From Carcharhinus amblyrhynchos (Eukaryota), in NCBI GenBank assembly GCA_965287045.1, contig OZ336873.1, positions 102,920,001 through 102,984,000 on the forward strand: a stretch of 64,000 nucleotides of DNA, read 5' to 3'. A model generated the notes under the pieces. That model ran no database searches, was not told the DNA's origin, and was given only the letters and a program-made list of their open reading frames with translations. This document shows, one piece after another, positions 5,504 to 63,637 of this stretch; position 1 is the stretch's first letter, and every line of letters starts with the position of its first letter. The translations under genes were made by a program, and so were the position numbers.

Positions 5504-5635
5504 GTTTAACTGCTGCAGCAATGGCTGAAGCGATGAAGTTACAAAAACTGAAACTTGCGACGATGAATAATCTCCATGGTAACGGTAGTCAAAATGGCAC
5601 TGAGTCTGAGAATGAAGAACTGAATTCTAGCACAG
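5504..5635 (+). CDS. DACH2: Dachshund homolog 2 internal coding exon (132 bp, phase 1/1)
   Basis: Pyrimidine-rich acceptor ttgttag|GT and donor ACAG|gtgagt. Translates to (G)LTAAAMAEAMKLQKLKLATMNNLHGNGSQNGTESENEELNSST(G), which closely matches recalled vertebrate DACH2 AAAMAEAMKLQKMKL...GNGSQNGTESE. It lacks the long poly-Ala tract of the equivalent DACH1 exon. Confidence 0.93.
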
Positions 5636-30143: not shown

Positions 30144-32412
30144 CTTGGCATCTAACTGCAGTGCAGCAGCAAATATAGCACCCTGGAAAACCATTTACCC
30201 AACAATTAGTTTATATTATTAGTTTATAACAATGCCTCTTCCTTTAAACATAAAATGCCTCTATAGATCAATTTAACTATTCCAGTCATTAACTTTTTCT
30301 TTTATATATCTGAAAATTAACAATTTTAGAATTAAATTAAGCACAATAGAGTCTGTTAAATAGTATATTAGTTAAATGTAATCATTTCAACAATTTACGC
30401 TAATATGTACGTTATCACAGGTAGTAATGTGATATTCCGTGATTCAGTTCTCTTACACAGTTAGCACATGTTAACCCGCTCTGGCTGGACTTCACCTTTA
30501 CCTGGCAATAACATGGTATTGCTTAGATGACAGGAGGTTGTGCCTCCATTTGGTAGGATTTTGTTTGTTGCTGTCAGTGGTGAGTTGACATGAGCGATAT
30601 GTGTGTTTCTTCTGGTGTTGTAGGACTCTTGCTTGATGCTGCTCATGCAGTATCAGTTGGTGATATTGTTGATATTGCACTACTTCTTGGTGATGCTGTT
30701 AATGTTGTCTCACTAGTTTTGAGAAGTTGCTGGCATTGTTCATGATCTTTTCTACTTCAGCAGCTCTGGTGTAGTTCTAATAGGAATTCTTGTTTCTTCT
30801 TGTTTGCTTATTGGTTTCCTTCTTACTAACGTATGACCTTAGAGTCTTAGCTTCCCCAGAAGGATGGGTGGTGGGTTCCAGCTTTTCCAGCCGCCTGTTG
30901 ATGGGCTCGGGAAGAGATTTTCCATGTTTGTTGAAGTGTTGACTTCCTTCTTTCTAATATTGATCTTTCTTCTGCTCACTCAGAGGATGTATATTGAATG
31001 GCAGGGTCACCTTTTACTTTCCCCCATTCAACTGCTCTGCAAGTGATTTCATGTCAACATTGAGAAGTGTAGATCAGTTGACAATAAAAGGTGAGGTTAG
31101 GGTCTTCCTTTGTTTCTGGCATGTCTTGAGGCTCTCTTAACCTTTCATCTCATCTTTCTACAAACTCATGCCTTCTTGGAGATAAGGTGGTGATGTTGAA
31201 CCCAGCAAAATCCTTAAATCTCTGGAAATGAATTGGGTTCAATTGTCACATATTACTGCTTCAGAAATCCCTTGCTCAGCAAACAGAAGATGATTGTTGT
31301 ACCTCTCAAGCCTTTCATCTTTTGGATACAAAGGAATTTTCAGGAGGCACCTTCAAATATGAGATACCATTCTTGACCTTGTGTGCACAAGTTTGACTCC
31401 CACAGTATGCCATCACCTAGGCAGTACTTCAGTAGGTACTATTTCCTCTTTCTGTTGTGTCTCTTTGTATTTCTGGCATACAGTGCATGTAGACACAGAT
31501 CATCGGATGTCTTTGTCAATGACTATCCAATACACAGCTAATCTGGCTCTCAGATCTTCTCCATTTTCCTGTGGCCTTCATGCACCTTCTGGAGAAGTAA
31601 TTCCTGCATCTTCTGGAGAAGTACTTCCTGCATCAGTTTTGGATATGATTATTCTGGATCTGGCTTGCTGAACAGCATATTATAGTGAAATGTCACCTCT
31701 GATAGATCAGTGCTGCCAGATTGCTGATTGCGTTTGCTGCATCTTATCAGGCTCTCCCTGGATCACTTTGAGAGAGCGTTCATTTTTGCTGGTCTTATTT
31801 TTGCCGGTCTTATTTTTGCCTCAATTTTAGTGGAGTTACATTCACCAGATGATCGTTCTTTACACCTAGATTTTCTATGTCATGCTTCTCATATGTTGAC
31901 AATTGAGATGTGGCATCTACTGGCATCATTTTTCTTCCTAGTTTGTATTTCAATGTAAAATTCTAATTCTGAAGTTTGAAGACTAGCTTCTGCAGTCTTG
32001 GTGATGTTCCACACAGATTTTTCTTGTCGAGCTGCTCTAATGGATGATGATTAATTTCTACAATGAACTTCTTCCCATGGAGATTTGTATGAAATTTCTC
32101 ACAACTATGTTGGCCATTTTGGACTTAAAGGACTTAGATGATGCTAGAGCTTTGGATGAAAATGTGATTGATTTTCACTCTTGCACTACGGCTGTTCCCA
32201 GTTCCTTTGTACCAACATTTACTCGCAGAACGATAGGCTTCTCTCTGTTATAGTCTCCCAGACTTGTCTCTAGCAGGCTGTTTTCTCAAAGTCTTTAATG
32301 TGACGCTGACTACTGTTACTCAGCGTCTTCTCACATCAACTCTCATAGGTTTGCTGTGTTTTCTGACATGAGGAGTAAGAAAGAACTCATTACTGGATCA
32401 AACTTACTCTTT

Positions 32413-32921
32413 AGAAGGTTCACTAGGCTAATACCGGAGGTGAGGGGGCTAGCCTATGGGGAGAGATTGAATAGACTGGGTCTTTACTCGTTGGAGTTTA
32501 GAAGGCTGAGGGATCTTATAGAGACATATAAGATAATGAAGGGGCTAGATAGGGTAGAGGTAGAGAGATTCTTCCCACTTAGAAAGGATAGCAGAACTAG
32601 AAGGCACAGCCTCAAAGTAAGTGGCGGGGGGTGGGGTGGCTGCAGTTTAGATCGGAGTTGAGGAGGAACTTCTTCACTCAAAGGGTGGTGAGTCTCTGGA
32701 ATTCTCTGCCCGTTGAAGTTGTGGAGGCTACCTCGCTGAATATATTTAAGTCACGGGTAGATAGGTTTCTGATAGACAAGGGAATTAAGGGCTTTGGGGA
32801 GAAAGCAGGAAAGCGGAACTGATCCATTTCAGATCAGCCATGATCTTGTTGAATGGCGGGGCAGGCTCGAAGGGCTAAATGGCCTACTCCTGCTCCTATT
32901 TCTTATGTTCTTATGTTCTTT
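32413..32921 (+). mobile_element. CR1 LINE 3' fragment inserted in the Gypsy relic
   Basis: RRFTRLIPEVRGLAYGERLNRLGLYSLEFRRLR..., RRNFFTQRVVSLWNSLP, and a (TTCTTATG)n tail. Confidence 0.93.
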
Positions 32922-35862: not shown

Positions 35863-37500
35863 TGCTGAAAATTGTCAAATGCAGTCAGTGCATAAGGAGG
35901 TGTTTATCAGTCTCTGAGTGTGTTACCATACTAATTGCTTTTGCACAGTTGTTTGGTGAATCTTTGGAAGTAGTCTTGCGAAGGATATTTTCACAGGTTT
36001 GATAATGACTAAAAGGCAATCCTTCAGCATACCTACCGGCTGTGCAGACAAAGCAGTTACAGAGCGAGTAATAGAGAGGTCCACGAAAGGGAAAGATTTC
36101 TCATGTAATATTGGAGAAGCATTTTCCTTTTTAAACAATAGGCTACAATATCAGTGAATGTCAGCACCAGACTTTTAATGGGTTTTTTCTGTGAGAAGGA
36201 AGTTACACATTAATCAGACTTTAAGGTGTACGCCAGTAAAAATCTGACAATTTCTTAGCACGGTGCACATCGCTGACTGAAAGTAATTCCATGGGTTCCG
36301 TACAATTTCCTCAGGAGAACATAACTTTCCATTTAATAAACTGCACATAATACAGGTACATTTCAATTCCATTGCATTATACCATGCATCACACAATAGT
36401 TGAGAAAGATGTGTACTGACAATGGGCACCATCACAGGAACACCGGGCTGCCGCTTGTAAATGATGAGTTGCTGAAGGGAAATGACAATAATTGCATTTG
36501 ATTACCTTGGCACGCAGTAAGGTTATGTTTCTGAACTCAATAACATAAGCCCTTGCCTCGGCAGCAATTTATATCTGACCAATATTTCGATATCAAACAC
36601 TTGGTCACATAAGCCAATGGAGTGTTGCGGTGTCAGTTCAGCTTGATGCAAATGCTTTTATTGCAAGTGAGTTGGAGCCCGTGAGAGTAAGAGTTACACC
36701 TGAAGCCCTCCGGGCAGGAACAGATTTGTTTGGATTTCCAAAAGCGTACATGCACACCAGGCAAAATGGGAGACCACATTCTTGCCTGGGAGGAAGGGCA
36801 GCTTTGTTTGCAAGATGAACAGCTACAATTCACTTTATGTTTATATGTCCCAAGGAAACTACATGTTTATGTTGTGAGATCCATAAAACTTACCATTTTT
36901 ATAAAGACATATGCTGAGATTTATGGGACAGGCCCAATATAAACACTTAAATCCTATTTTGTACCCATAAAATGTTATTAAAAGCAATAAAAAAGGCATA
37001 TATCTTACTGCGTTCTATAAATGAATATAAGTATTGTATAGTTATGCATTCAGTTTCTGAGAAAGTGCATCTTGCAGCTAGTGAAATGTTGTGCTTTGAT
37101 CCATGCAAATTTTCAGTAATTTTCAATGTAATACATTTAATATTTGCCTTGAATTATATAATTCCCACAAATTTCTCCATAAAACACACCGTTGCTTAGT
37201 GAACATGATATTCGGCACAACAAGCTTAGCTTAAAATATGTTGCTACATCATTGGGGTAGGTTTGACAGTAGATATAAAGCTAACAGCGCTAACTGTTAC
37301 TCATTGGAGTTTAGAATGAGAGGAGACCTTATTGAGACATATAGGATTCTGAGGAGGCTTAACAGGGTAGATGCTGAGAGGCTGTTTCCACTTGTGGGAG
37401 AGTCTAGCACCAGAGGGCATAATCTCAGGGTAAGGAGTTGCCCATTTAAGATGAAAAGGAATTTTTTCTCTCAAAGCGTGGTGAATCTGTAGAATTCTTT

Positions 37501-37657
37501 TGTGGTTTGTGAAAAGAAATCCCACTCACCTGACGAAGGAGCAGCGCTCCGAAAGCTAGTGGTGTTTGCTACCAAATAAACCTACTGGAGTTTAACCTGA
37601 TGTTGTAAGACTTCTTACTGTGTTTAACCCAGTCCAATGCTGGCATGTCCACATCAT
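37501..37657 (+). mobile_element. Short Penelope-like/retrozyme-like element with 9-bp TSD
   Basis: TSD gaattcttt at 37492-37500 and 37658-37666. Contains a hammerhead core and AATAAA (37575-37580). Confidence 0.8.
37523..37564 (+). ncRNA. Minimal type I hammerhead ribozyme motif
   Basis: CAC-U-CAC | CUGACGA (37530-37536) A | stem II GGAGC-AGC-GCUCC | GAAA | GC-UA cleavage site | GUG-GUG pairing with the 5' CAC..CAC. Palindromic AGCU replaces helix III. Confidence 0.75.
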
Positions 37658-38099
37658 GAATTCTTTACCACACAGAGGACAGTAGAGGCTGCGTTATTAA
37701 GAATGTTCAAGGCTGAGATGGACAGATTTTTAAGTAGTAAGGGAATCGGGGTTTTTTGGGGATACATTGGGAAAATGAAGTTGAGGATTATCAAATCGGA
37801 TCTCACTGAATGGCAGAGCAGATTTATTGGGCCTTACGGCCTATTTCTGCTCCTATATCTAATGATCTGTTATCTATTAGAAAAAACATACAATAACTTC
37901 CACTGAATGCATTATTAAACATGGAAATCTGAAAGTTACTGTTGGAGATGAACTGCTTCTTCAGATACCAGTACCTCACCCAGACAATCATTACTGAAAT
38001 GCATTGACTGGTGTGAATTTGATATACGTACCTGATATACACTAAACCTGATGAAGGAGATGATGGTTTGTATCTTGGGCATGACTGAGCACACTCATG

Positions 38100-43168: not shown

Positions 43169-44412
43169 GGATGTGTCTAGGGCGGTGGATAGAGGAGAGC
43201 CGGTGGATGTGGTCTTTCTTGATTTTCAGAAGGCGTTTGACAAGGTACCTCACAAGAGGTTATTGCAGAAGGTCAGGGGACATGGAGTTGGGGTTACGGT
43301 GATAGCGTGGATAGAGGATTGGTTGTCAAATAGGAGGCAGAGAGTGGGGGTCAATGGGTGCTATTCGGACTGGCGGATGGTGACTAGTGGAGTGCCCCAG
43401 GGGTCGGTGCTGGGGCCTCAGCTATTTACCATTTATATAGATGATCTGGAGGAGGGAACCGAGTGTATGGTGTTGAAATTTGCTGATGACACCAAGATTG
43501 GTGGAATGGCAAATTATGCGGAGGGTGTGGAGAGTCTACAGAAGGATCTAGATAGGCTGGGCGAATGGGCCAGCAAATGGCAAATGGAATTTAATGTTGG
43601 CAAGTGTGAGGTGGTCCACTTTGGTAGGAATAATGGTAGGAAGGATTATTACTTACGTGGCGAAAAACTGCAGCAGGCGACGGTGCAGAGGGACCTCGGG
43701 GTCCTTGTGCGTGAGTCGCAAAAACCCAGCTTGCAGGTGCAGCAGGTGGTCAGGAAGGCTAATGGGATGCTGGCCTTCATAGCAAGGGGGATTGAATATA
43801 AAAGTAGGGAGGTCTTGCTGTAGCTGTATAGGGCATTGGTGAGGCTGCAGCTGGAGTACTGTGTGCAGTTTTGGACGCCATACTTACGCAAGGATATTTT
43901 GGCCTTGGAGGGAGTGCAGAGGAGGTTTACTAGGCTGATGCCAGAGTTGAGGGGGTTGATCTACGAGGAGAGGCTGAATAAACTAGGCTTGTACTCGTTA
44001 GAGTTTAGAAGAATGAGGGGAGATCTCATTGAGACGTATAAGATGATGAATGGGATGGATAGGATAGAGGTGGAGAGACTCTTCCCGCTTAGAAAGGATA
44101 GTAGGACTAGGGGACACAGCCTCAAGATAAAGGGGGAGCGGTTTAGAACGGAGTTGAGGAGGAACTTCTTCACTCAAAGGGTGGTGAATCTCTGGAATTC
44201 TCTGCCCGTTGAAGTGGTGGAGGCTGCCTCGCTAAACATTTTTAAGACGCGGGTTGATGGGTTTTTGATAAGAGAGGGGATTAAGGGTTATGGGGAGAGG
44301 GCGGGAATGTGGAACTGAGCCACGACAGATCAGCCATGATCTTATTGAATGGCGGGGCAGGCTCGAAGGGCTAGATGGTCTATTCCTGCTCCTATTTCTT
44401 ATGTTCTTATGT
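43169..44412 (+). mobile_element. Young 5'-truncated CR1 LINE (RT domain and 3' UTR)
   Basis: VDVVFLDFQKAFDKVPH, SGVPQGSVLGPQLF and KFADDTK motifs. A single premature TAG at 43821-43823 splits the ORF. (TTCTTATG)n tail. Confidence 0.96.
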
Positions 44413-47400
44413 ACGTAGCAACATTTTGAAATTAGATAGAATCTCTCATATAGTAAAATGTGCCATTCAACATCTAAATGTCCTGCACCTCATGCTGTTG
44501 GCTGAAACCTTCACCCCTCATTAAAATTTTCCTCAAGTTGAACATTTTTGACATTGTTTCCAGAGTGGAAACATTTTGTATCAGTGCTATGTATAACTTG
44601 AGCAACACTCTGAACATGCGGGAGTGCAGTCCACTGGGAGAGAGAATAGAGATGGCTTGATTGATGAAAAAGAGTTGCATATTCATCCTTCAAATCAACC
44701 AGAGACCCTCAGTTACAAATGGATTGTATGCTCACATTTCCATTTCTGCTGTTTAGTCCCAGCTTATCATCAGCTTTCTGATTCATATCTGTAGTTCATC
44801 AAAGAAGAAAAATATTTAAGACCAGCAACACAATCGGATACCCTTTTATCAACTTACACTGCCCTTCAACAAAAAATTGTAGGACACCTTGCAATTAGAT
44901 TCACAAGATTAAATGTTTGGGGACACAGGTATGGATTTAAATATTCATTTCTTGATATTAATCTTTTAAAAATGTTGAAAATTATGTTAATATCTTCGCA
45001 CACTTGACCGATGGTTAAATATGGTTATAATGACCACTCTAGTGTGCTTTTTGCAGGAATGGCTGTCAGACAGTTGATTAAAACATGAGGTACAGCTGAA
45101 TGCTTTCATCAACTTGAATCCCTTATATCAGCATAAAGCAGACTGGAGCATTAATTATTAGTATTGGTAGATATATTGTGACGCAACTGTTGAGCTACAG
45201 TTAAACTCATTCTAGATATACTAGCTTTCAACATGCATTCAACACCCATGGACTTTGAATGGATTCACTGTGATTTGATAACCTCATGAATACGGCAGCC
45301 ATAACGTAGCAATGGTTCAGAGAACACCTGCATCAGTTGGGAATGGCAAAAGCCATACAGATCTGCAAAGTTGTATGTTGCATTTGAACTATGGCCTTAT
45401 TTGGGAAAAGGCCTCCAATTCAGATGAAAAATGTTTGGATAGCCTCATCACCGGTGTTTAAGAGTGTGAGCTTGCAACGCAGAATGGATTTGATTGGATC
45501 TTTGCAATGATGTTCTGGCAGAACAGGATTTCTCCCATTCTTCTGACATCGCCGCAGTCTTGATCCAGTTTTTGGGTCAAGAATCACCACTGCAGCGCCC
45601 AAACAGGTGACAAAGGATCTTTAAGGGCCAGAGTGCCCTAAAGTCAACTGGTGGAGTCTTAACACCTGTAAAGATTTTCAGAGGCGTAGACACAAAGTAG
45701 TCCCAATCTTGCTGGGTGATGTCCATCTTGCTGCCAAAGCAATCTTACTGGAGGTGGCCAATTCCGAGGATGTCTTGGGAAGCATTAACCAATTAAGAAT
45801 AGCAGCTGGAGCTAGCACCCAGCTAGCTATTCTTGCATTTCAAACCTTGCACACTTCAGTTAAATGGATACTTCATAAGTAGTGCGCAAGCTGTGCAAAG
45901 CATGCAATGCATAGGTATTACAAAATCCCACAAATCGCAGTTCCAGAATCATCTTGCTTGGTGGAATCTTGTTATCCAGTTTAGCTGCTGATGGGAAGTA
46001 ATGAACTGTAAATTCAGAGGGATAAGAAGATTGGTGTCAATGGATTCAGACACTCATTACTTTGGTAACCATGACCAGCACCCAGTTGCCTCGCCTAGCT
46101 ACTTAAAGAGCCAGGTGAGCATTTCAGTGTTAAGCATCAGCTCCTACTGCAAAAACAAAGTTAAACCTTTGTACGTCAGCCTGAGGCTCAAAACAAAAAA
46201 AAGCTCCAATTTTTTGAACAATAACACTTGTTTGATACATTCTTTAAAAGTATTGAAGGATAGGAATGTCCCTAAACTCTGAGGTTGGTGGGGGATGGGG
46301 GATATAGAGGTGGGGGGATTAGCTTCAGTATGTATGACCTCGTGCTACTGTGACTGCTTTAGTTATCTGGAGTTAGGGAATCTCTGGGGCTCTGACAGTG
46401 ATATTTTAATTAGTAGATACTGAAGTTATTCATGGACTCAAGTACAAAAGACCTAAAGAACAAGAAGAATTTAGGCAAAAGAATAAACTAGTTCCTGTTC
46501 ATCGGAAGAATTATTTACAAAAACAGTTTCTTCATAAACTGGATTAGTTGCTGTGACTTGTTCAACAACTTGCTTTTAAAAAATTGTAACGTTTGCTGAC
46601 AAACCATTTTGTGATGATGAGCCCGATATTCAAACCCATCAAATGTAGCATTAGTAACTTCAAGCGAGTTAGCAGAATGATTTGTTCTGAAAAGTCACAA
46701 CTAGTTTGACTTTATCCTCTAGTTTACAAACCCTTATGCATAAACAAACGTTGAAAGATCGCTTTTGATTTTCTATGTGGGCCTTCGGTTAAGGTTCAGA
46801 GCATTTTGAATGACATTTCTGAAGTAAACATCAACTCTAGCAAAGTGTTTGCTTCCAGTTCTCTTTTCCTGGGAAAAGCACAAACCAAGGATGAAGTTAG
46901 GTTGCAGCTAGTGCAAGCTCAACCTGTGAAAATTGTGCACCTCAGGATGGACATCTCTTGCCATTTGGTCATAGTGCACTCATGAGCCACAGTGGGATAC
47001 ACGATCAAACTTTCATTACAGCACACCCTAAAGATGGCATCAATTCATTATAAACACAGCCCACGTGTTACCAAGCTGCTCATATTCAGTCATTTTAAAA
47101 AAGTCAATATTATTTTGGTCAATGTGTAAGCCACATTTTGTGTTAATTTAAACCTGAAAGAAAGCATCTCTCAACGTACAGAAATTCTTTCATTGATTTG
47201 GTTGGTGGTCACATTAGTATCAGAACTCGGAACTCAATAGTTAAATTATCACAGTTTTTCTTTCTTATAAAATGTGATCTTTGGTCCTATCAAAAGAACA
47301 AAGATCCAGTATATTAAAAACATGATGCTCAGAAGAACAGATTGGCCAGTGTTTTACATGCCTTCCCAGCATAGAGGAAAATGGAGGCTTTGTTGAATCA

Positions 47401-49733
47401 CAGCAAATACAACGTGTAACATTACAGGACGTTTATACCACAAGAGGTGATGAGGTAGATGTGGACGAGGAGGTCATTCCAGCCAACCTAGATTATCCAA
47501 TCCAGAAAGTTTGACAGTTCCATCATCAAAACATTCAATTCTTTCTGAAATGATTACAGGAATTTTATTTATGTCTCCGATATTCTATCCTGAAGTCTTT
47601 CCAAGTATTCATCATTCTGTGTGTAATAAATAACTGACACGAGCCTTGTTCTGAATGTGTCCCATTGCCTAACCTCTCCCCACCAGCATCATGTTACTCA
47701 AAACAATCTTCCAAATTTAACTTTTTGTACATCTCACAGGTCTCCTCTTCAAGAGTAAAAAGCTCAATACTAATAAAATGAATGATCATGCTACGATACA
47801 AGTCTACTAGAAATTTGACTGGGTTTCAGATTTAGTCCAAACATTAAGTCACAATGAAAGACATCCCATTGTTTCTTTAAGGTCAGAAGGTTATAATTAA
47901 TACGCCACTACAAATACCTCTCTGCAAGCATCCAGTGAATTATGGATGTCAAGGTGACAGCACATTTGCCTCAGGTATTTACCAAAGCCATTAGTGTTGC
48001 TGTAGGCATTCTCTATCTATTAAGAATGTTCCCTTATGTAATAGTCAGAACTCTACAGAGAAGAAATTTAATTCATATTATCATCAAAAATAATCAGTCT
48101 TCAAATCTGTAATGAAAAACACCACCTGCTTGTTTACCCACAGATCTCTATCTGCATAATGAGCAATCTCATGCACATTGATTTTAAGATTTCTCTATTA
48201 CCAATTTAATGTGTTCTCATTTTAAATACGACGCACCAGTATGCAATAAAAATATTAATTTCCAACATGACTACTCCACTGAGCATCACCAGTACATTCT
48301 GTTCAAACAACTGAATGGATATATTACTCTACCAATACTTAAATAATTGGAAGATGATTGCAAAAAAAAAATAAAAATTTGAATTGGTAGCATTTTCCAA
48401 ATTGTATCACTTTGTAGGACACATTTCTTTGATACTGTATATTTATAAATCTAAAATACTATAAAGAATATGAATAATAGAAACATCTTGATGAATATTA
48501 AACTAGATGTCACTGTGTATTACAGTACCCAACAATGTAAGTATAATGGATATAGTAATATCATACAAGTTATTTCACTTTGCCTTTTGGATATTTTTTA
48601 TTATTTACCTTTGCCGGTATTCTTTATTGTAAATACTTCCTGATTCTAGGAGAATGGATTAAATTGACACTCAGATATGAGACCCCAAAAGAAACTTAGT
48701 TTTTGCCCCAATTATTTAACTTTGCTTAACATTTCAGGAAGCTTACACTAACCACTCTCCTACTGTAGAGGTACATATAAAGGGGCTGGGGAAGATGCAT
48801 TTTGTTATCAGAATGCAGAACATATTGCTGCTCTTACACCACTGCACCAATAGATTGGCCTGACAGCGGCCAGTATCAAACAATGACAAGGTCCTGTTGA
48901 AATGAATTGCGTTAATTCAGAAAAGCTGCATTTCACAGGTCATTGAGTAAATTTGCAATGGTAGTTGCTGAAAGTGCAACTTAAAGGAGAAACACAACCA
49001 TAATGATCGAGGTAGTGGTAATTTAATCTGGAGAGATAGATAAATGGTGTAGTGGTCTTGATCAAGTTTTGAACATCTTTCTCACAACGTGGTACATTAA
49101 TAGATTATCAGGAATACACCAATAATGCAGATGCAAAAGTGACAAAAATATATTCATGTCATGCTCAAAAAAAATACAGCTTTATTTTTTTAAAAAAGAC
49201 ATCTGAAATAAATGTGGAATCAGCTTTCCAAGTATCTTTATTCTTATGACAGATCTTGAAACAAATATTACTATACAAATATTTTAGTTGGCAAGTGGCA
49301 TAGAAAGGACGATGAAATCTTATCCAAAGTGTAATTTTGTCAAATGATGATTTTTTTTAAAAGATAAGTAACCATTTGACATGTGAAGTCTCCCATGCTG
49401 CAAATAAATTGAACAAAAGCTAAACTGAAATTTCAGGCACCTGGCTGACTAAACTTGCTTAAAGTATATGTATTGTAGATCTCACATTGCCTATTTGAAC
49501 ACCGAGTATTAGAGCTTCTACTAATAAAATGTAACACTATTAACAGGATGTTATGATAGGCACAGATAATCTTACAAAACACATCTCCACAAAGTATCAG
49601 CTTACTTTGTCTGTTTCATATTCACATACTGTACTTGTGAACTCAATTGCTCAGTCTGCCAAGATGAGGAAGCAAGTGTTCTCCGGTTGTGTTTAATTAC
49701 CTAATTTATGATCCATTTGTTCAAGCACTTCAA

Positions 49734-49889
49734 GTGGAAGTAAATCTTTGTGGGGCAAAGAGAAACTCCAGTCACCCACTACCAGAGGGTCAGAGGACGT
49801 TGTCAACCATGTCACACTGTCTAGTCAATACAATTTCTTAGCCACACACCTGCTTAGCCTATCCCAACAGAATTGAGCCAAGAGTAAAG
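49734..49889 (+). pseudogene. DACH2: Decayed (pseudo-)exon of DACH2, the cassette exon normally lying between the two flanking exons
   Basis: Translates to GSKSLWGKEKLQSPTTRGSEDVVNHVTLSSQYNFLATHLLSLSQQN*AKSK, resembling recalled DACH2 GSESSWDKDKMQSP...LQQNHLLTN and DACH1 SSDGSWDKETLPSS...HPLNHLQQSHLLPN. In-frame TGA at 49874-49876. The acceptor reads caa|GT instead of cag, and the donor reads G|cacagt. Confidence 0.8.
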
Positions 49890-49930
49890 CACAGTTTACA
49901 TGTATCTTTTCTTTTAGGCCTGCAAAGACC

Positions 49931-49963
49931 TGTGTGTGTGTATGTGTGTGTTTGTGTGTGTGT
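49931..49963. repeat. (TG)n microsatellite, imperfect
   Basis: tgtgtgtgtgtatgtgtgtgtttgtgtgtgtgt directly visible. Confidence 0.9.
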
Positions 49964-52210
49964 TGATGACAGCCAAACTAAGTCATCTATAAAGATAAGA
50001 CCTTGTGATCTATTAAAGGATGTAAAAGTGGTTGGAGAGCATGATTACTCAGTAAAAGGACCATTGCACATTTCAGGAACCACACTTCCAAAACGTTCAG
50101 AGGAGGAGGAGCAAAAAGGAGAAAAACTGGAACACGAACAGAATTAACTCATGGCTAAAGCACAATTTGTGTAGCTTTCTCGTATCTTCCAGCGCAGTGA
50201 CTAAACTGTTTACATATTAAGGCGAGAACAATAATACTGGAGTGACATTATGTCGCTCAGTTCATAATACACCTTAAGCATAACTGTCAATCATTGAAAA
50301 TACTCTCTGTAGCTAACCCTTCAGCAAGAATCACAACCGTCAATAGCAAGCTCACGAGGAATTCCCTGGCCTGCTGGGAGGGGAGGATTTATAACCAGTC
50401 ATGAACACAGGGATCCTCATTCTTAGCAGCAATTAGTTTAACACCCATGGGCCTCCTTGGGAACTCCAAACAACTCATCACATCATCAGTACAATCTGGT
50501 ACATTAAAACACGATTTGATGCCGATTTGTAAACATTATCATTATAGGGAAATGACTCACAATACAAGTGCAATTTAACATTGTGATTTATATATCTAGG
50601 TGTGAAATCTATATGTGAACTGGACATTGTAGTGAGACAGAAGGTTGAATCTAACTTCTTCTGGTGGTTGAGAATATAGCCATGAATTGTAGGGTGTGTT
50701 TATTTCTATGCCATTGAACTACCAGTGTGCAGTTGATCAAGAACTAAAGATGTACTGAAAGGCTGTTTTTATTGCTTAAATAGTTACCTTCACCATGCTG
50801 CTGTTATTTAGTTTCCAATTACCGCAACGAGGAATGATCAGAAATAAATGAGTTAGGTAGAGAACAAAGGTTCTGCATATAAATTGCAAAAGAGAAAGTT
50901 ACATCAAGATTGCTCCTGCACAGGTCTAATTTAGTAGAGTTGAAAAGAATGGGGACATGTTTAGTTTCTTAACACGCTAGCCTGGCCTGCTACATCTACT
51001 GATTTGGCGAATGAGGGTGTTATGGTTCAGGCTTTCCCTCAACATTTTGCCTCACTGACTTTCCTATTGTAATGTTGTGCATGGATGAGTTCATATTTAC
51101 TGCCAGAACAGGACTCTACGAGATTATTCAATCCACGAGGTCTCTGAAGGCAGAGCTGCCCATCATCCATAATTAAACAGTTCAGACAGTTACACTGAAG
51201 CCTGATGAGTAGGTGCTCATACTTCATCTGCTTTCTGAACACCTGTTAATACTGCTGCCATATACAGCCAAATTAGAACAAATCCTCTGTAACCAATTTC
51301 CCGACTGACCTGGTCTTGTCCCGTTTACAATTACACACAGAATTTTCCATTCCTGGCACAGAATTCTGGTATCGTGGAATTGGAGCCAACAGAATTTTTG
51401 ATGGAACTCAGGTTTTGGCCTTGTTCACAAAGCCATGGTAGATTTTGATTGGTGAAGATTGCAAGACGTGCTTTTTCTGCCTGCCCTCTAGCAACGTTTG
51501 GGGACATTGTTGCGTTATCCCAATAACCCCATTAAGATACATTTCCAATAGACTCAAGGGTAAATATATCTTGACAAAGGTCTCCCATTGGTTACTTATT
51601 TCTTTGTACTGATCGTCTCAGCTCAGATTGGATCTTGAACTTTATCTCCATAATGACACTACAACAAATAGCCCATGCTGGTTAAATGAGTGCCAGAGGA
51701 TGATTGGAGCAGTAGTAGGTGTGATTCTGGGCTGTATGTGGGCTCTATTCTTTGCTATCTTACAAATACCATAAATCAGACTTTTTTGTATTGTGAACTC
51801 AGAATCAAGTGGGCTAGTAACTGTATACAAAGTACATTATAGTTCATTATTGTACATCTAATATATCATGAAAAAATTAAGCTTCAAAACAATGTCAAAT
51901 GAAGGATATTGTGGCTGATTTGCATTCAAATCTGACGGTGGAAACCAAGTACATGACTATTTAAAATAGGCAGTCTACTTATCCTTTCAAAATTTGACTA
52001 TTTTAACTTTCAGGTAGTTGGATGCATCACTGTTTGAAGAAGGCAGCAGCACGAGTGTTTGCAAACTGAGGTATAATCTCATCAGAAGGAACTTTATTGA
52101 ATTTGAATATACTTTAGAATGAAATCTTTGATCTTCCAAAAACAATATATCTTGTCCTGCTGTCATCCTCACTTGAACTCTGTTACCCTGGATACCATAC
52201 CTGGTTTCCA

Positions 52211-54705: not shown

Positions 54706-54878
54706 GATTAGAGTTGCCATTCATGATGATGCCCCACCCCCTCATCCCTGTCAGCCTACCTCCTGCATCGGTTACCATGGCAATGAGCCAGATGAGTCAC
54801 CTCAGCACCATAGCTAACATGGCAGTGGCAGCCCAAATGCACAGTCCCCTTTCCCGAGCAGGAGCTTCTGTTATTAAG
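54706..54878 (+). CDS. DACH2: Dachshund homolog 2 internal coding exon (173 bp, phase 1/0)
   Basis: T-rich tract then aaaag|GA acceptor, and AAG|gtaagc donor. Translates to (G)LELPFMMMPHPLIPVSLPPASVTMAMSQMSHLSTIANMAVAAQMHSPLSRAGASVIK, a hallmark DACH segment. The QMHSPLSRAG portion is DACH2-like. Confidence 0.95.
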
Positions 54879-56023
54879 GTAAGCCTGAAATCATTGCAAT
54901 CTTTGTGTGGAAATAACTGGTAATTAGGATTTTGCTTTCCTTCGGAATCAATATCAAAACTGATGAACTGTTTTATTTCTCTGACGGCTATTCCACATCC
55001 AAATGTGGCCTGACTTTTTACTTGAGAATGATGGGAGTGAAAAACCTTAAAGCTCAAGGTTAAGTTGCACAGTAATAGAATACAGCACAAATCAATTGTA
55101 CCGTGTGCTGACCTGAAACATGCAGCCTGTAAACTTGACTTTCTATCCAGGGTACAGACAACTGCACGCACACATAAGCCTGATGCATAAAACAAACTGT
55201 TGGGCTTTTCCTAAAGGTGCAATGAAGAACAACAGTCAGATTTCAGTTCCCTTATCTATACTGAACCAGCCTTATATACATGGTGCAGTTAGATTTGAGA
55301 TAGTATGCTCGTGGTTTATCCTTATTGATGGTGGGTGTGCATGGGTGCAGTAGGCGTGGTGAGTGGAAAGATAGTGTTAGATATGCTTCAAATGGCTGAT
55401 AGCTTTCAATATTGTTTTTCATCTCAACTGCTGCTTTCACCTTACCACGACACACTTTGAAATTTTTGATTCTCCACCACTTGTTCTCTTCTTCATTTAA
55501 TTTACCTTTCTTAATTTGAGAATGGATAGTAACATGCCTAAACCTGCTATTCTGTAACTGACCCACAGGGGTGTGCAAGAGTACACCTGCAATTTCCTCC
55601 TTTTGGGTCCAGGAATAGGTGTACTACTATTTGAGGCAAACACTCGGTCATCAAAAGTTCTTAAAAGTCATTCCTTAAAAGAAGGAAAATCTAGGGAAAG
55701 ACTTCCAGTATAACCGTTCCCCAGCCACCTGGATAATTTGAAATAGAAGAACACTTTCCGAGGAATCTTTTCCATTTAGTGACCCTTTTCAAGTACTCCC
55801 ATCGCTGTCCTGATGCGAGCATTAGATATCTGCCCATGACTCCTTGTAGTGAAGCATAATTTAGCACTTTAGACAGATCCAGGAGGTTGAACTAGTAAAA
55901 GTAAAAGTTGAATGTACACCAATACCTAACGAGGTTACTGGGATTTTCCAGCTTGGAAGGTTCAATTTCGACCCCTGTATGAAGTGTCAATATACAAGTT
56001 TGTGGATAAAATTGTTTCAAGCT

Positions 56024-56562
56024 ACAAGACCACAAGACATAGGAACAAAAGTAGGTCATTCGGCCCATTGAGTCTGCTTTGCCATTCAGGGAGATCATGT
56101 CTGATCTGATCCACTTTCACCTCATAACCCTTGATTCCCTTACTGATTAAAAATCTGTCTATCTCAGCCTTGAACAACTTTAACAACCCAGCCTCTACAG
56201 CTCTCTGTGCTAAAGAATTCCACAGATTCACGATCTCCCCCAAGAAAAGAAATTCCTCCTCACTTCTATCTTTAATCATTGACCCCTTGCTCAGAGAATA
56301 TAGCCTTTGATTCTAAACTCTCCCAAAAGGGAAACAACCTCTCAGCATCTAACCTGTGAAGCCTCCTGGGAATCCTATAAGTCTTAATAAGGTCACCTCT
56401 CATTCTTCTAAACTCAAATGAGTACAGGCTCAACCACTTGTTCACATAAGAAAATTGCTCCCTACCCAAGATCAACCCATTGAACTTTCACTGGGCTGCC
56501 TCCAATACCAGCATTTCTTTCCTTAGATAAAAGGGACCAAACTGTTCACAGTATTCCAGCTG
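56024..56562 (-). mobile_element. CR1 LINE 3' fragment
   Basis: LSLYSFEFRRMRGDLIKTYRI and VNLWNSLAQRAVEAGLLKLFKAEIDRFLISKGIKGY on the minus strand. Confidence 0.9.
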
Positions 56563-63058: not shown

Positions 63059-63501
63059 AGTATGATAAAGGATGTTACGTTTCATATCTGAATTATAAAA
63101 TGGGATCAGTAAACTTTGATAAATAAATTATTTTTCAATACAGATGTTTTATAGTGTTGTAGGTAAATTGATGCCTTTGGGATGTGTTAATGGTAAATAA
63201 TTTATTGACTAGATTTAAATACAAGTGAGCAGAAAGTACCCAAATGATCATTTAATAAAGAACATAATATTTTGATTTGACCTGTATTTGAGTAGAAATA
63301 TGTTGAAATGTTTAAATGTTTAATGACAGTATTTTCCACAGTAACATCAGTAGTAAGAAAATATTTAAGTATGTATATACAAACGTGAATGAATAATGAA
63401 AATTAACCTTGTATTTCGGAATGTAGGGAATGCCACTACAAGCCAGTAAAGATTACACTCATCTACTTGGACAACCTCTTGAATTTTTGTTCTGCCACCA
63501 G

Positions 63502-63637
63502 GAGCGGGTTCATAATAGCCCATCCCCAGCACCGTCCCTTGAAGACAGTCACCGGCCTGGAAGTCACCCCTCTTCACACCAGAGCAGCAGTGTGTCTAGC
63601 TCACCATCCCAACATGACATTGCCTCTGACAGAATAT
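63502..63637 (+). CDS. DACH2: Dachshund homolog 2 internal coding exon (136 bp, phase 0/1)
   Basis: Acceptor ttttgttctgccaccag|GAG and donor ATAT|gtaagc. Translates to ERVHNSPSPAPSLEDSHRPGSHPSSHQSSSVSSSPSQHDIASDRI, matching the DACH ER..SPSPAPSLEE..RPGS..SSH.SSSVSSSP segment. The phase is compatible with the upstream exon. Confidence 0.94.

What the first reader, a model, noticed from the sequence alone, without database searches (positions are those of the whole stretch)
49734..49889. Fossil DACH2 cassette exon: both splice sites lost plus an in-frame stop
Seen: a 156-bp segment not in the ORF track reads GSKSLWGKEKLQSP...HLLSLSQQN*AKSK, in the expected position and phase between two intact phase-1 DACH2 exons. 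The acceptor is CAA instead of CAG, the nearby AGs (49724-25, 49733-34) are out of frame, the donor is cacagt, and TGA replaces a conserved His. Known (recalled): DACH1/DACH2 have a 52-53 aa exon here, and it is alternatively spliced in DACH1. The segment aligns without gaps to the recalled DACH1 peptide (W, KE, L, S, G, H, H, L, QQ in register). Inference: this lineage has permanently skipped the exon, so its DACH2 is constitutively the short isoform with the frame preserved (5635 joined to 54706). Alternatively, residual inclusion could act as an NMD poison exon.
Basis: partly seen in the sequence, partly recalled or inferred. Interest (0 to 1): 0.8.

Follow-up and report, generated by a model that had tools for sequence, protein, structure and literature searches.

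The report
Fossil DACH2 exon in a houndshark
In this shark, one optional piece (exon) of the developmental gene DACH2 has decayed into a silent-looking relic that sawsharks, rays, chimaeras and bony vertebrates still use; this is a real and probably very old case of a well-known process, exon loss, rather than a new mechanism.

Summary
Real. The segment is the decayed orthologue of DACH2 (dachshund a) coding exon 4: tblastn E 1e-17 to the sawshark exon, the only copy in the intron, in an otherwise intact gene. One correction: the donor is not at 49889. A 6-nt deletion shortens the exon to 49734-49883, where the orthologous GT survives but is very weak. The acceptor is dead (CAA) and TGA is in frame. 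Decay looks neutral: 15 of 49 codons changed against 1 of 49 in sawshark, and invariant positions are hit as often as variable ones. About 0.17 substitutions per site points to a loss more than 100 My old. The exon is in 0 of 39 annotated isoforms of 10 galeomorph sharks but in 9 of 12 other chondrichthyans, which suggests one loss in the galeomorph stem (inferred; no other shark's DNA was seen). Skipping was already an ancestral isoform, the exon lies in a predicted disordered linker, and DACH1 keeps its copy. A poison-exon role is unlikely but untested: no reads were seen. The window's richest UG repeat lies 47 nt after the old donor, a possible TDP-43-type silencer. This is a new instance of known exon loss; the scan had not noted it before.

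The parts
5504..5635 (+). DACH2 coding exon 3 (132 nt, phase 1-1), intact
   Evidence: AG and CAG|GTGAGT sites; donor score 8.1 bits; no mismatch to Mustelus asterias P0134 inside the exon
49731..49733 (+). Dead acceptor: CAA where the intact DACH1 paralogue has CAG
   Evidence: neighbouring AGs give exon starts 49726, 49735 and 49741, all +1 frameshifts
49734..49883 (+). Fossil DACH2 coding exon 4 (150 nt; 156 nt in intact orthologues)
   Evidence: tblastn E 1.4e-17; DNA alignment to own DACH1 exon; 15 lineage-specific residue changes in 49 codons
49871..49876 (+). Approximate site of a 6-nt deletion, followed by the in-frame TGA at 49874-76
   Evidence: gap in the DNA alignment to DACH1 exon 4; exact gap position is ambiguous by a few bases
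49884..49889 (+). Orthologous donor, GT kept but weak (AGA|GTAAAG: no G at -1 or +5)
   Evidence: aligns with the DACH1 donor; score -1.1 bits against 2.4-8.1 for 10 real DACH1/DACH2 donors; 20% of 2659 intronic GTs score as well (matrix values recalled)
49931..49962 (+). Interrupted (TG)n tract 47 nt after the old donor; candidate TDP-43-type silencer (untested)
   Evidence: highest TG count of any 40-nt window on the + strand of the 64 kb: 16, next 12
54706..54878 (+). DACH2 coding exon 5, intact
   Evidence: 100% identical to elasmobranch 'dachshund a' proteins; in-frame with exon 3
63427..63637 (+). DACH2 coding exon 6 with a second acceptor 75 nt downstream (long and short forms); end approximate
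   Evidence: tblastn; isoform pairs differing by 25 residues here

Best explanation
The segment is a dead relic of DACH2 coding exon 4. In the jawed-vertebrate ancestor this was a frame-neutral cassette exon coding 52 residues of the disordered linker between the DachBox-N domain and the C-terminal coiled coil; its donor had A at -1 and so depended on a good intronic match (inferred from the conserved junction Arg). Because the skipped form already existed and DACH1 keeps the same exon, inclusion could be lost at little cost. Once the acceptor (CAG to CAA) and the donor's +5 G were gone, exon 3 joined exon 5 in all transcripts and the sequence drifted without constraint, gaining about 17 non-synonymous changes, a 6-nt deletion and a stop. 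The depth of decay and the distribution in annotations best fit one loss in the stem of galeomorph sharks, roughly 180-240 My ago. Shown: homology, lesions, decay, intact rest of gene, annotation pattern. Inferred: constitutive skipping in this species, the single origin and its date, and the order of lesions.
For: Homology and single copy. Lesions. Ten of the 11 exons of the short form were mapped and show no mismatch to P0134 inside the exons. Fossil-specific changes 15 of 49 against 1 of 49 in sawshark, Fisher p 1.7e-4; flanking exons differ from sawshark at 2 of 43 and 0 of 57. Columns invariant in 30 intact DACH2 proteins are hit 5 of 16; columns at least 90% conserved 10 of 32 against 8 of 19 for the rest, p 0.55. 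Exon in 0 of 39 isoforms of 10 galeomorph species from 3 orders, and in 37 of 66 distinct sequences from 9 of 12 other chondrichthyan species, Fisher p 4.6e-4 with species treated as independent, which they are not. Divergence 0.168 (0.09-0.29) gives 204 My (113-353) at the catshark rate (rates from PMC9826928); the Orectolobiformes split is about 181 My and the shark-skate split about 237 My (PMC11406177). Exon region pLDDT about 31-35. DACH1 exon 4 intact with canonical sites.
Against: No RNA or raw reads were seen. No DNA of another shark was seen, so shared lesions are not shown. Absence from annotation is not genomic loss: 3 of 12 non-galeomorphs also lack it (Heptranchias 0 of 5; Leucoraja 0 of 3, longest isoform not found; Mobula birostris 0 of 3 although M. 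hypostoma has it). Some rays show partial relaxation while still including the exon (Mobula 6 of 32 conserved columns changed, Hypanus 4, Amblyraja 3), so part of the decay could predate loss of splicing. The deletion preserves frame. Published shark rates differ sixfold, and the slowest gives an impossible 1053 My. GT is still present at the donor.
Confidence: 0.7

Rival explanations
1. Stepwise, repeated loss. The exon became weakly constrained and rarely included across many elasmobranchs, and was finally inactivated separately in several lineages (this houndshark's line, perhaps other galeomorph orders and Heptranchias). It is still a dead fossil here, but not a single galeomorph event, and some galeomorphs may keep an intact, rarely used exon.
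For: Heptranchias, a non-galeomorph, has 0 of 5 isoforms with the exon; M. birostris 0 of 3. Included exons in rays carry 5-9 changes from the majority form in four lineages. The frame-preserving deletion could have been fixed while the exon was still used. The lower bound of the date (about 90-110 My) is younger than the galeomorph crown.
Against: 0 of 10 galeomorphs against 9 of 12 others. The point estimate of the date falls at or before the galeomorph split. Sawshark, sawfish, electric ray and chimaera exons have 0-1 changes in 32 conserved columns.
Confidence: 0.2
2. Poison exon. A shifted acceptor (49726 or 49735) and the surviving GT at 49884 are used at low level, adding a premature stop that sends DACH2 mRNA to nonsense-mediated decay, possibly gated by TDP-43 on the UG tract.
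For: Inclusion from 49726, 49735 or 49734 to 49883 each gives a stop inside the cassette, with many exon junctions downstream. GT is retained. A UG tract sits where TDP-43-repressed cryptic exons most often have it (PMC5959245). Protein annotations would not show such an isoform.
Against: The donor scores no better than 20% of random intronic GTs. The shifted acceptors are AAG with modest pyrimidine tracts (0.62-0.69). Divergence is at a neutral-looking level, whereas regulated poison exons are usually highly conserved (recalled).
Confidence: 0.08
3. Assembly error or a rare broken allele: the species has a working exon 4.
For: Raw reads were not seen. CAAGT could be read as a single missing G.
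Against: About 17 non-synonymous changes, a 6-nt gap and a stop within 150 nt, while ten other exons show no mismatch to an annotated houndshark protein. Both annotated Mustelus isoforms lack the exon.
Confidence: 0.02

Closest known systems
Lineage-specific exon loss by weakened splice-site recognition (review PMC12992808, passages read, citing Wang et al. 2015 and Alekseyenko et al. 2007, which were not read)
   Same: An exon present in outgroups persists as intronic DNA with damaged splice sites, and the gene stays in frame without it.
   Different: The review frames loss for constitutive exons; this one was already alternative. It appears far older than the primate examples and is still 65-70% identical in translation.
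Loss of alternative exons in mammalian lineages (PMC2231371, passages read)
   Same: [quoted passage not shown]
   Different: Different clade and gene; here the fossil itself was found and its decay measured.
TNNI3 exon 3 lost or inactivated in moles and shrews, partly skipped in bats (Joyce et al. 2024, as summarised in PMC12992808)
   Same: Complete loss in some lineages and partial skipping in others of one in-frame exon; here galeomorphs lack it and some rays show relaxation.
   Different: TNNI3 exon 3 has a known function and a phenotype. No function of DACH exon 4 was found in the searches, and no phenotype is shown.
DACH2/dachshund a exon-4-skipped isoform of other vertebrates, and DACH1 exon 4
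   Same: The protein expected here equals the short isoform annotated in sawshark, rays, chimaera, turtles and birds. DACH1 has the homologous exon (33 of 52 identical to the sawshark DACH2 exon).
   Different: In those species both forms are annotated; here the long DACH2 form cannot be encoded.
TDP-43-repressed cryptic exons (PMC5959245 and PMC11163724, passages read)
   Same: UG repeat downstream of a 5' splice site; inclusion would add a premature stop.
   Different: Those are non-conserved exons with usable splice sites; this is an old coding exon with a dead acceptor, and TDP-43 binding is untested.

Membership tests
DACH2 (dachshund a) exon 4 orthologue | Lies between exons 3 and 5 of DACH2, not DACH1 | tested here: met
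   Exon 5 is 100% identical to elasmobranch dachshund a; the paralogue with 82% identity is on C10; exon order
DACH2 (dachshund a) exon 4 orthologue | Sequence homology to the 52-residue exon | tested here: met
   E 1.4e-17, 32 of 46 identical; E 1.6e-10 among 1.84 billion proteins
DACH2 (dachshund a) exon 4 orthologue | Phase 1-1 ends, last base A giving the junction Arg | tested here: met
   49734-49883, 150 nt, ends in A before GT
Lineage-specific exon loss (pseudoexon) | Exon used in outgroups | tested here: met
   Annotated in sawshark, 7 batoid species, chimaera and bony vertebrates
Lineage-specific exon loss (pseudoexon) | Splice sites disabled | tested here: met
   Acceptor CAA; donor GT kept but -1.1 bits against 2.4-8.1 for real donors; matrix recalled and human-based
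Lineage-specific exon loss (pseudoexon) | Coding constraint released | tested here: met
   15 of 49 against 1 of 49; invariant columns not spared; stop and deletion
Lineage-specific exon loss (pseudoexon) | Not included in transcripts | tested here: inconclusive
   Only indirect: 0 of 39 annotated galeomorph isoforms; no reads seen
Lineage-specific exon loss (pseudoexon) | Lesions shared across the clade (single event) | not testable with these tools
   No other shark genome is held; a metagenome scan found 0 matches and a short-protein search found no candidate
Poison exon (AS-NMD) | Inclusion creates a premature stop | tested here: met
   All three inclusions ending at 49883 stop inside the cassette
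Poison exon (AS-NMD) | Usable splice sites | tested here: not met
   Orthologous acceptor lost; donor at background level
Poison exon (AS-NMD) | Inclusion rises when NMD is blocked; DNA conserved across species | not testable with these tools
   Needs RNA-seq and other shark genomes
TDP-43-repressed cryptic exon | UG repeat downstream of the 5' splice site | tested here: met
   49931-49962, richest TG window in 64 kb; noticed after the fact
TDP-43-repressed cryptic exon | Appears on TDP-43 depletion | not testable with these tools
   Needs knockdown or a minigene

The most novel reading that the evidence does not exclude
A UG-repeat, TDP-43-type silencer just after the donor switched DACH2 exon 4 off in the galeomorph ancestor about 200 My ago and still holds the relic down as a latent NMD-coupled cryptic exon. 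The same exon was lost independently in hexanchiform sharks and is now decaying in stingrays and devil rays, making it a repeated natural knockout of a linker conserved from chimaeras to mammals, and a clade marker for Galeomorphi.
Probability: 0.12. Interest if true: 0.55.

Novelty: new member of a known kind. Interest (0 to 1): 0.3.

Why it matters
The process is known, so the surprise is modest. The case is useful in three ways. If the lesions are shared, it is a rare genomic change marking galeomorph sharks and a neutral clock for a group whose published rates differ sixfold. It is a natural deletion of a DACH linker segment that is otherwise strongly conserved across jawed vertebrates and has no function found in the searches made here, so long and short DACH2 forms can be compared by species. 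It also suggests that slowly evolving shark genomes keep readable exon fossils for very long times, which invites a genome-wide survey.

Tried and rejected
Sequencing reads: none were seen, so inclusion levels and base-level confirmation stay open. Other sharks' copies of the fossil: a search of 29-95-residue proteins found no candidate, an HMMER search of 1.84 billion representatives returned no second fossil among 12 hits, and an exact-pattern scan of metagenome contigs gave 0 matches; none of these is evidence of absence. Four long repeat-protein hits were set aside as chance. The donor at 49889 and the ungapped 156-nt reading were rejected. A GC donor at 49889-90 is out of phase and scores -1.9. 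Fourteen other AG/GT pairs keep the frame without a stop, but all use donors of 0.5 bits or less and no galeomorph isoform has an insert here. A repeat insertion as trigger: no interspersed repeat in 49400-50200 by own-genome DNA search (40 of 86 candidates scored; the non-self matches listed are all the TG tract), and no other window match to 47001-52000. The majority peptide was batoid-biased and gave 19 changes; it was replaced by a sawshark-based reference giving 17. Paralogue calibration: DACH1/DACH2 fourfold sites differ at 95 of 163 (JC 1.13, near saturation); with a recalled duplication age near 500 My this gives about 1.1e-9 per year and about 150 My, a rough figure. Two papers were not held; bioRxiv 2022.10.17.512540 and PMC10587355 passages gave no per-year rate. 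Earlier scan notes: none on look-alike DNA, none on DACH2.

Full report
What the locus is. The window lies at G000:C4:102920001-102984000. The exon at 54706-54878 is identical to proteins named 'dachshund a' or DACH2 in sharks and rays. A paralogue with 82% identity lies on C10; I call it DACH1 from its sequence and from recall. A search with the Mustelus asterias protein P0134 mapped the gene's exons along C4. Ten of the 11 exons of the short form were inspected and show no mismatch to P0134 inside the exons; the last short exon was not fetched. The animal is therefore most likely a houndshark-type galeomorph, and DACH2 is an intact gene. The finding lies between coding exons 3 and 5.

The observation. 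The sawshark exon matches 49736-49873 at 32 of 46 residues, E 1.4e-17, and the next best window hit is E 0.029. Genome-wide, 3 candidates were scored and 2 matched: this segment and the DACH1 exon. The 801 bases around it are single copy apart from a TG tract (40 of 86 candidates scored). The 3' end was misread. The own DACH1 exon is intact, with CAG and G|GTGAGG sites, and its DNA alignment puts a 6-nt gap near 49873 and its donor on the GT at 49884-85. Exon-bearing DACH2 proteins have Arg at the junction with exon 5, apart from a few with extra inserts there. Since exon 5 starts with GA, the exon must end in A: 49883 is A, 49889 is G. The fossil is thus 49734-49883 (150 nt), the stop aligns with Leu, and the donor GT survives. 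It is weak: -1.1 bits against 2.4 to 8.1 for ten real DACH donors of this genome, and 20% of 2659 intronic GTs score as well (frequency table recalled, human-based). The in-frame AGs inside the exon can pair without a stop only with a donor of -3.7 bits.

The decay. Against sawshark, sawfish and chimaera, 15 of 49 aligned codons differ only in the fossil and 1 of 49 only in sawshark (Fisher p 1.7e-4); the flanking exons differ from sawshark at 2 of 43 and 0 of 57 residues. In an alignment of 30 intact DACH2 proteins, the fossil alters 5 of 16 invariant columns, and 10 of 32 columns at least 90% conserved against 8 of 19 others (p 0.55); 13 of 51 positions hold a residue, gap or stop seen in none of the 30. 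This is the pattern of drift without protein constraint. The minimum is 17 non-synonymous changes on 113 sites, 0.168 per site after correction (0.09-0.29). With per-generation rates and generation times from PMC9826928 (passages) this is 204 My (113-353) at the catshark rate, 157 My at the bamboo-shark rate, and an impossible 1053 My at the hammerhead rate. PMC11406177 (passages) dates the Orectolobiformes split at about 181 My and the shark-skate split at about 237 My. The date is rough, but no rate makes the loss recent, and assembly error cannot explain this many changes.

Distribution. I sorted the chondrichthyan DACH2 proteins returned. The exon is in 0 of 39 isoforms from 10 galeomorph species (three Carcharhiniformes, two Lamniformes, five Orectolobiformes), the first-numbered isoform included for each. 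It is in 37 of 66 distinct sequences from 9 of 12 other species: sawshark, seven batoids and chimaera (two Mobula sequences are shared by two species, Hypanus and Hemitrygon share sequences and are counted as two species, and one chimaera entry has a shortened exon). Fisher p is 4.6e-4, too small because species are related. A search drawn from the exon alone listed no galeomorph among the best 120 of 387 hits; the other 267 were not shown. Against the simple picture: Heptranchias has 0 of 5, Leucoraja 0 of 3 (its first isoform was not found) and Mobula birostris 0 of 3 although M. hypostoma has the exon. Annotation absence therefore does not prove loss. Some rays show relaxation: Mobula changes 6 of 32 conserved columns, Hypanus 4 and Amblyraja 3, against 0-1 in sawshark, sawfish, electric ray, Rhinoraja and chimaera. 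No other shark's DNA could be examined.

How it most likely works. Skipping of exon 4 is ancestral: both forms are annotated in sawshark, rays, chimaera, turtles and birds. The exon is frame-neutral and falls in a region predicted to be disordered (pLDDT about 31-35, between a confident domain at about 50-146 and a long helix at 478-583, overall model confidence low). Its donor always had A at -1, which makes it depend on the intronic bases (inference). DACH1 keeps the homologous exon. Loss of inclusion was thus cheap; after it, the sequence drifted. The order of acceptor loss, donor weakening, deletion and stop cannot be read from one genome. Any residual inclusion through 49883 would carry a premature stop, which would favour further silencing. 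One lead, noticed after the fact: the most TG-rich 40 bases on the + strand of the window (16 TG, next 12) start 47 nt after the old donor; about 0.16% of the window lies within 100 nt upstream of such a run. PMC5959245 (passages) reports that TDP-43-repressed cryptic exons mostly carry UG repeats downstream of the 5' splice site, and PMC11163724 (passages) that TDP-43 can also repress conserved exons. The DACH1 intron has no such tract in its first 200 bases. Whether the tract is cause, later safeguard, ancestral regulator or chance is untested.

What is known. Exon loss through weakened splice sites is a named pattern (PMC12992808, passages), and loss of alternative exons is described as common in mammals (PMC2231371, passages). 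Five searches for DACH exon 4 splicing or its loss in sharks listed no paper on it; I saw listings and abstract openings only (25 of 194), most subscription papers are not in the library, and no supplements were read. The scan's earlier notes held nothing on this DNA or on DACH2.

Verdict. Real, partly misdescribed, and a new member of a known kind. Dead exon with a single old galeomorph loss 0.70; dead here but lost repeatedly 0.20; poison exon 0.08; artefact 0.02.

Noticed in passing
window 49931-49962 (+): Interrupted (TG)n tract, the most TG-rich 40 nt on the + strand of the window, 47 nt after the fossil donor; position typical of TDP-43 silencers.
   Followed up: partly
window 49900-49918 (+): A good-looking acceptor (long U/C tract, TAG|G at 49916-18) lies between the fossil donor and the TG tract; by eye the phase-1 frame after it stays open for about 75 codons. 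No annotated galeomorph isoform has an insert here.
   Followed up: no
P0043, P0042, P0051 (exon 4 region): Mobula, Hypanus/Hemitrygon and Amblyraja still include exon 4 but with 6-9 changes from the majority form; Mobula shares three changed residues with the fossil. Looks like independent relaxation.
   Followed up: partly
P0004, P0009, P0135-P0137 (Heptranchias perlo): All five annotated isoforms of this non-galeomorph shark lack exon 4: a second loss or low inclusion.
   Followed up: partly
window 63427-63501 (+): Exon 6 has two acceptors 75 nt apart; the 25-residue extension is open here and nearly unchanged in sawshark, carpet sharks, lamniforms and catsharks.
   Followed up: no
window 5504-5635: Exon 3 is also skipped in some annotated isoforms of several chondrichthyans, alone or with exon 4 (for example P0004, P0012, P0036, P0046), so exons 3 and 4 form a pair of 132/156-nt cassettes.
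   Followed up: no
P0138, P0037 (Scyliorhinus canicula): Two catshark isoforms carry an extra 47 residues, in P0138 between exons 2 and 3, not seen in the other sharks printed; possibly a recent exon gain or an annotation artefact.
   Followed up: no
window about 32300-32800, 37250-37900, 43500-44500, 56000-56500: Several fragments whose translations resemble the 3' end of CR1/L2-type LINE reverse transcriptases (label recalled, not tested), scattered through the 49-kb intron.
   Followed up: no
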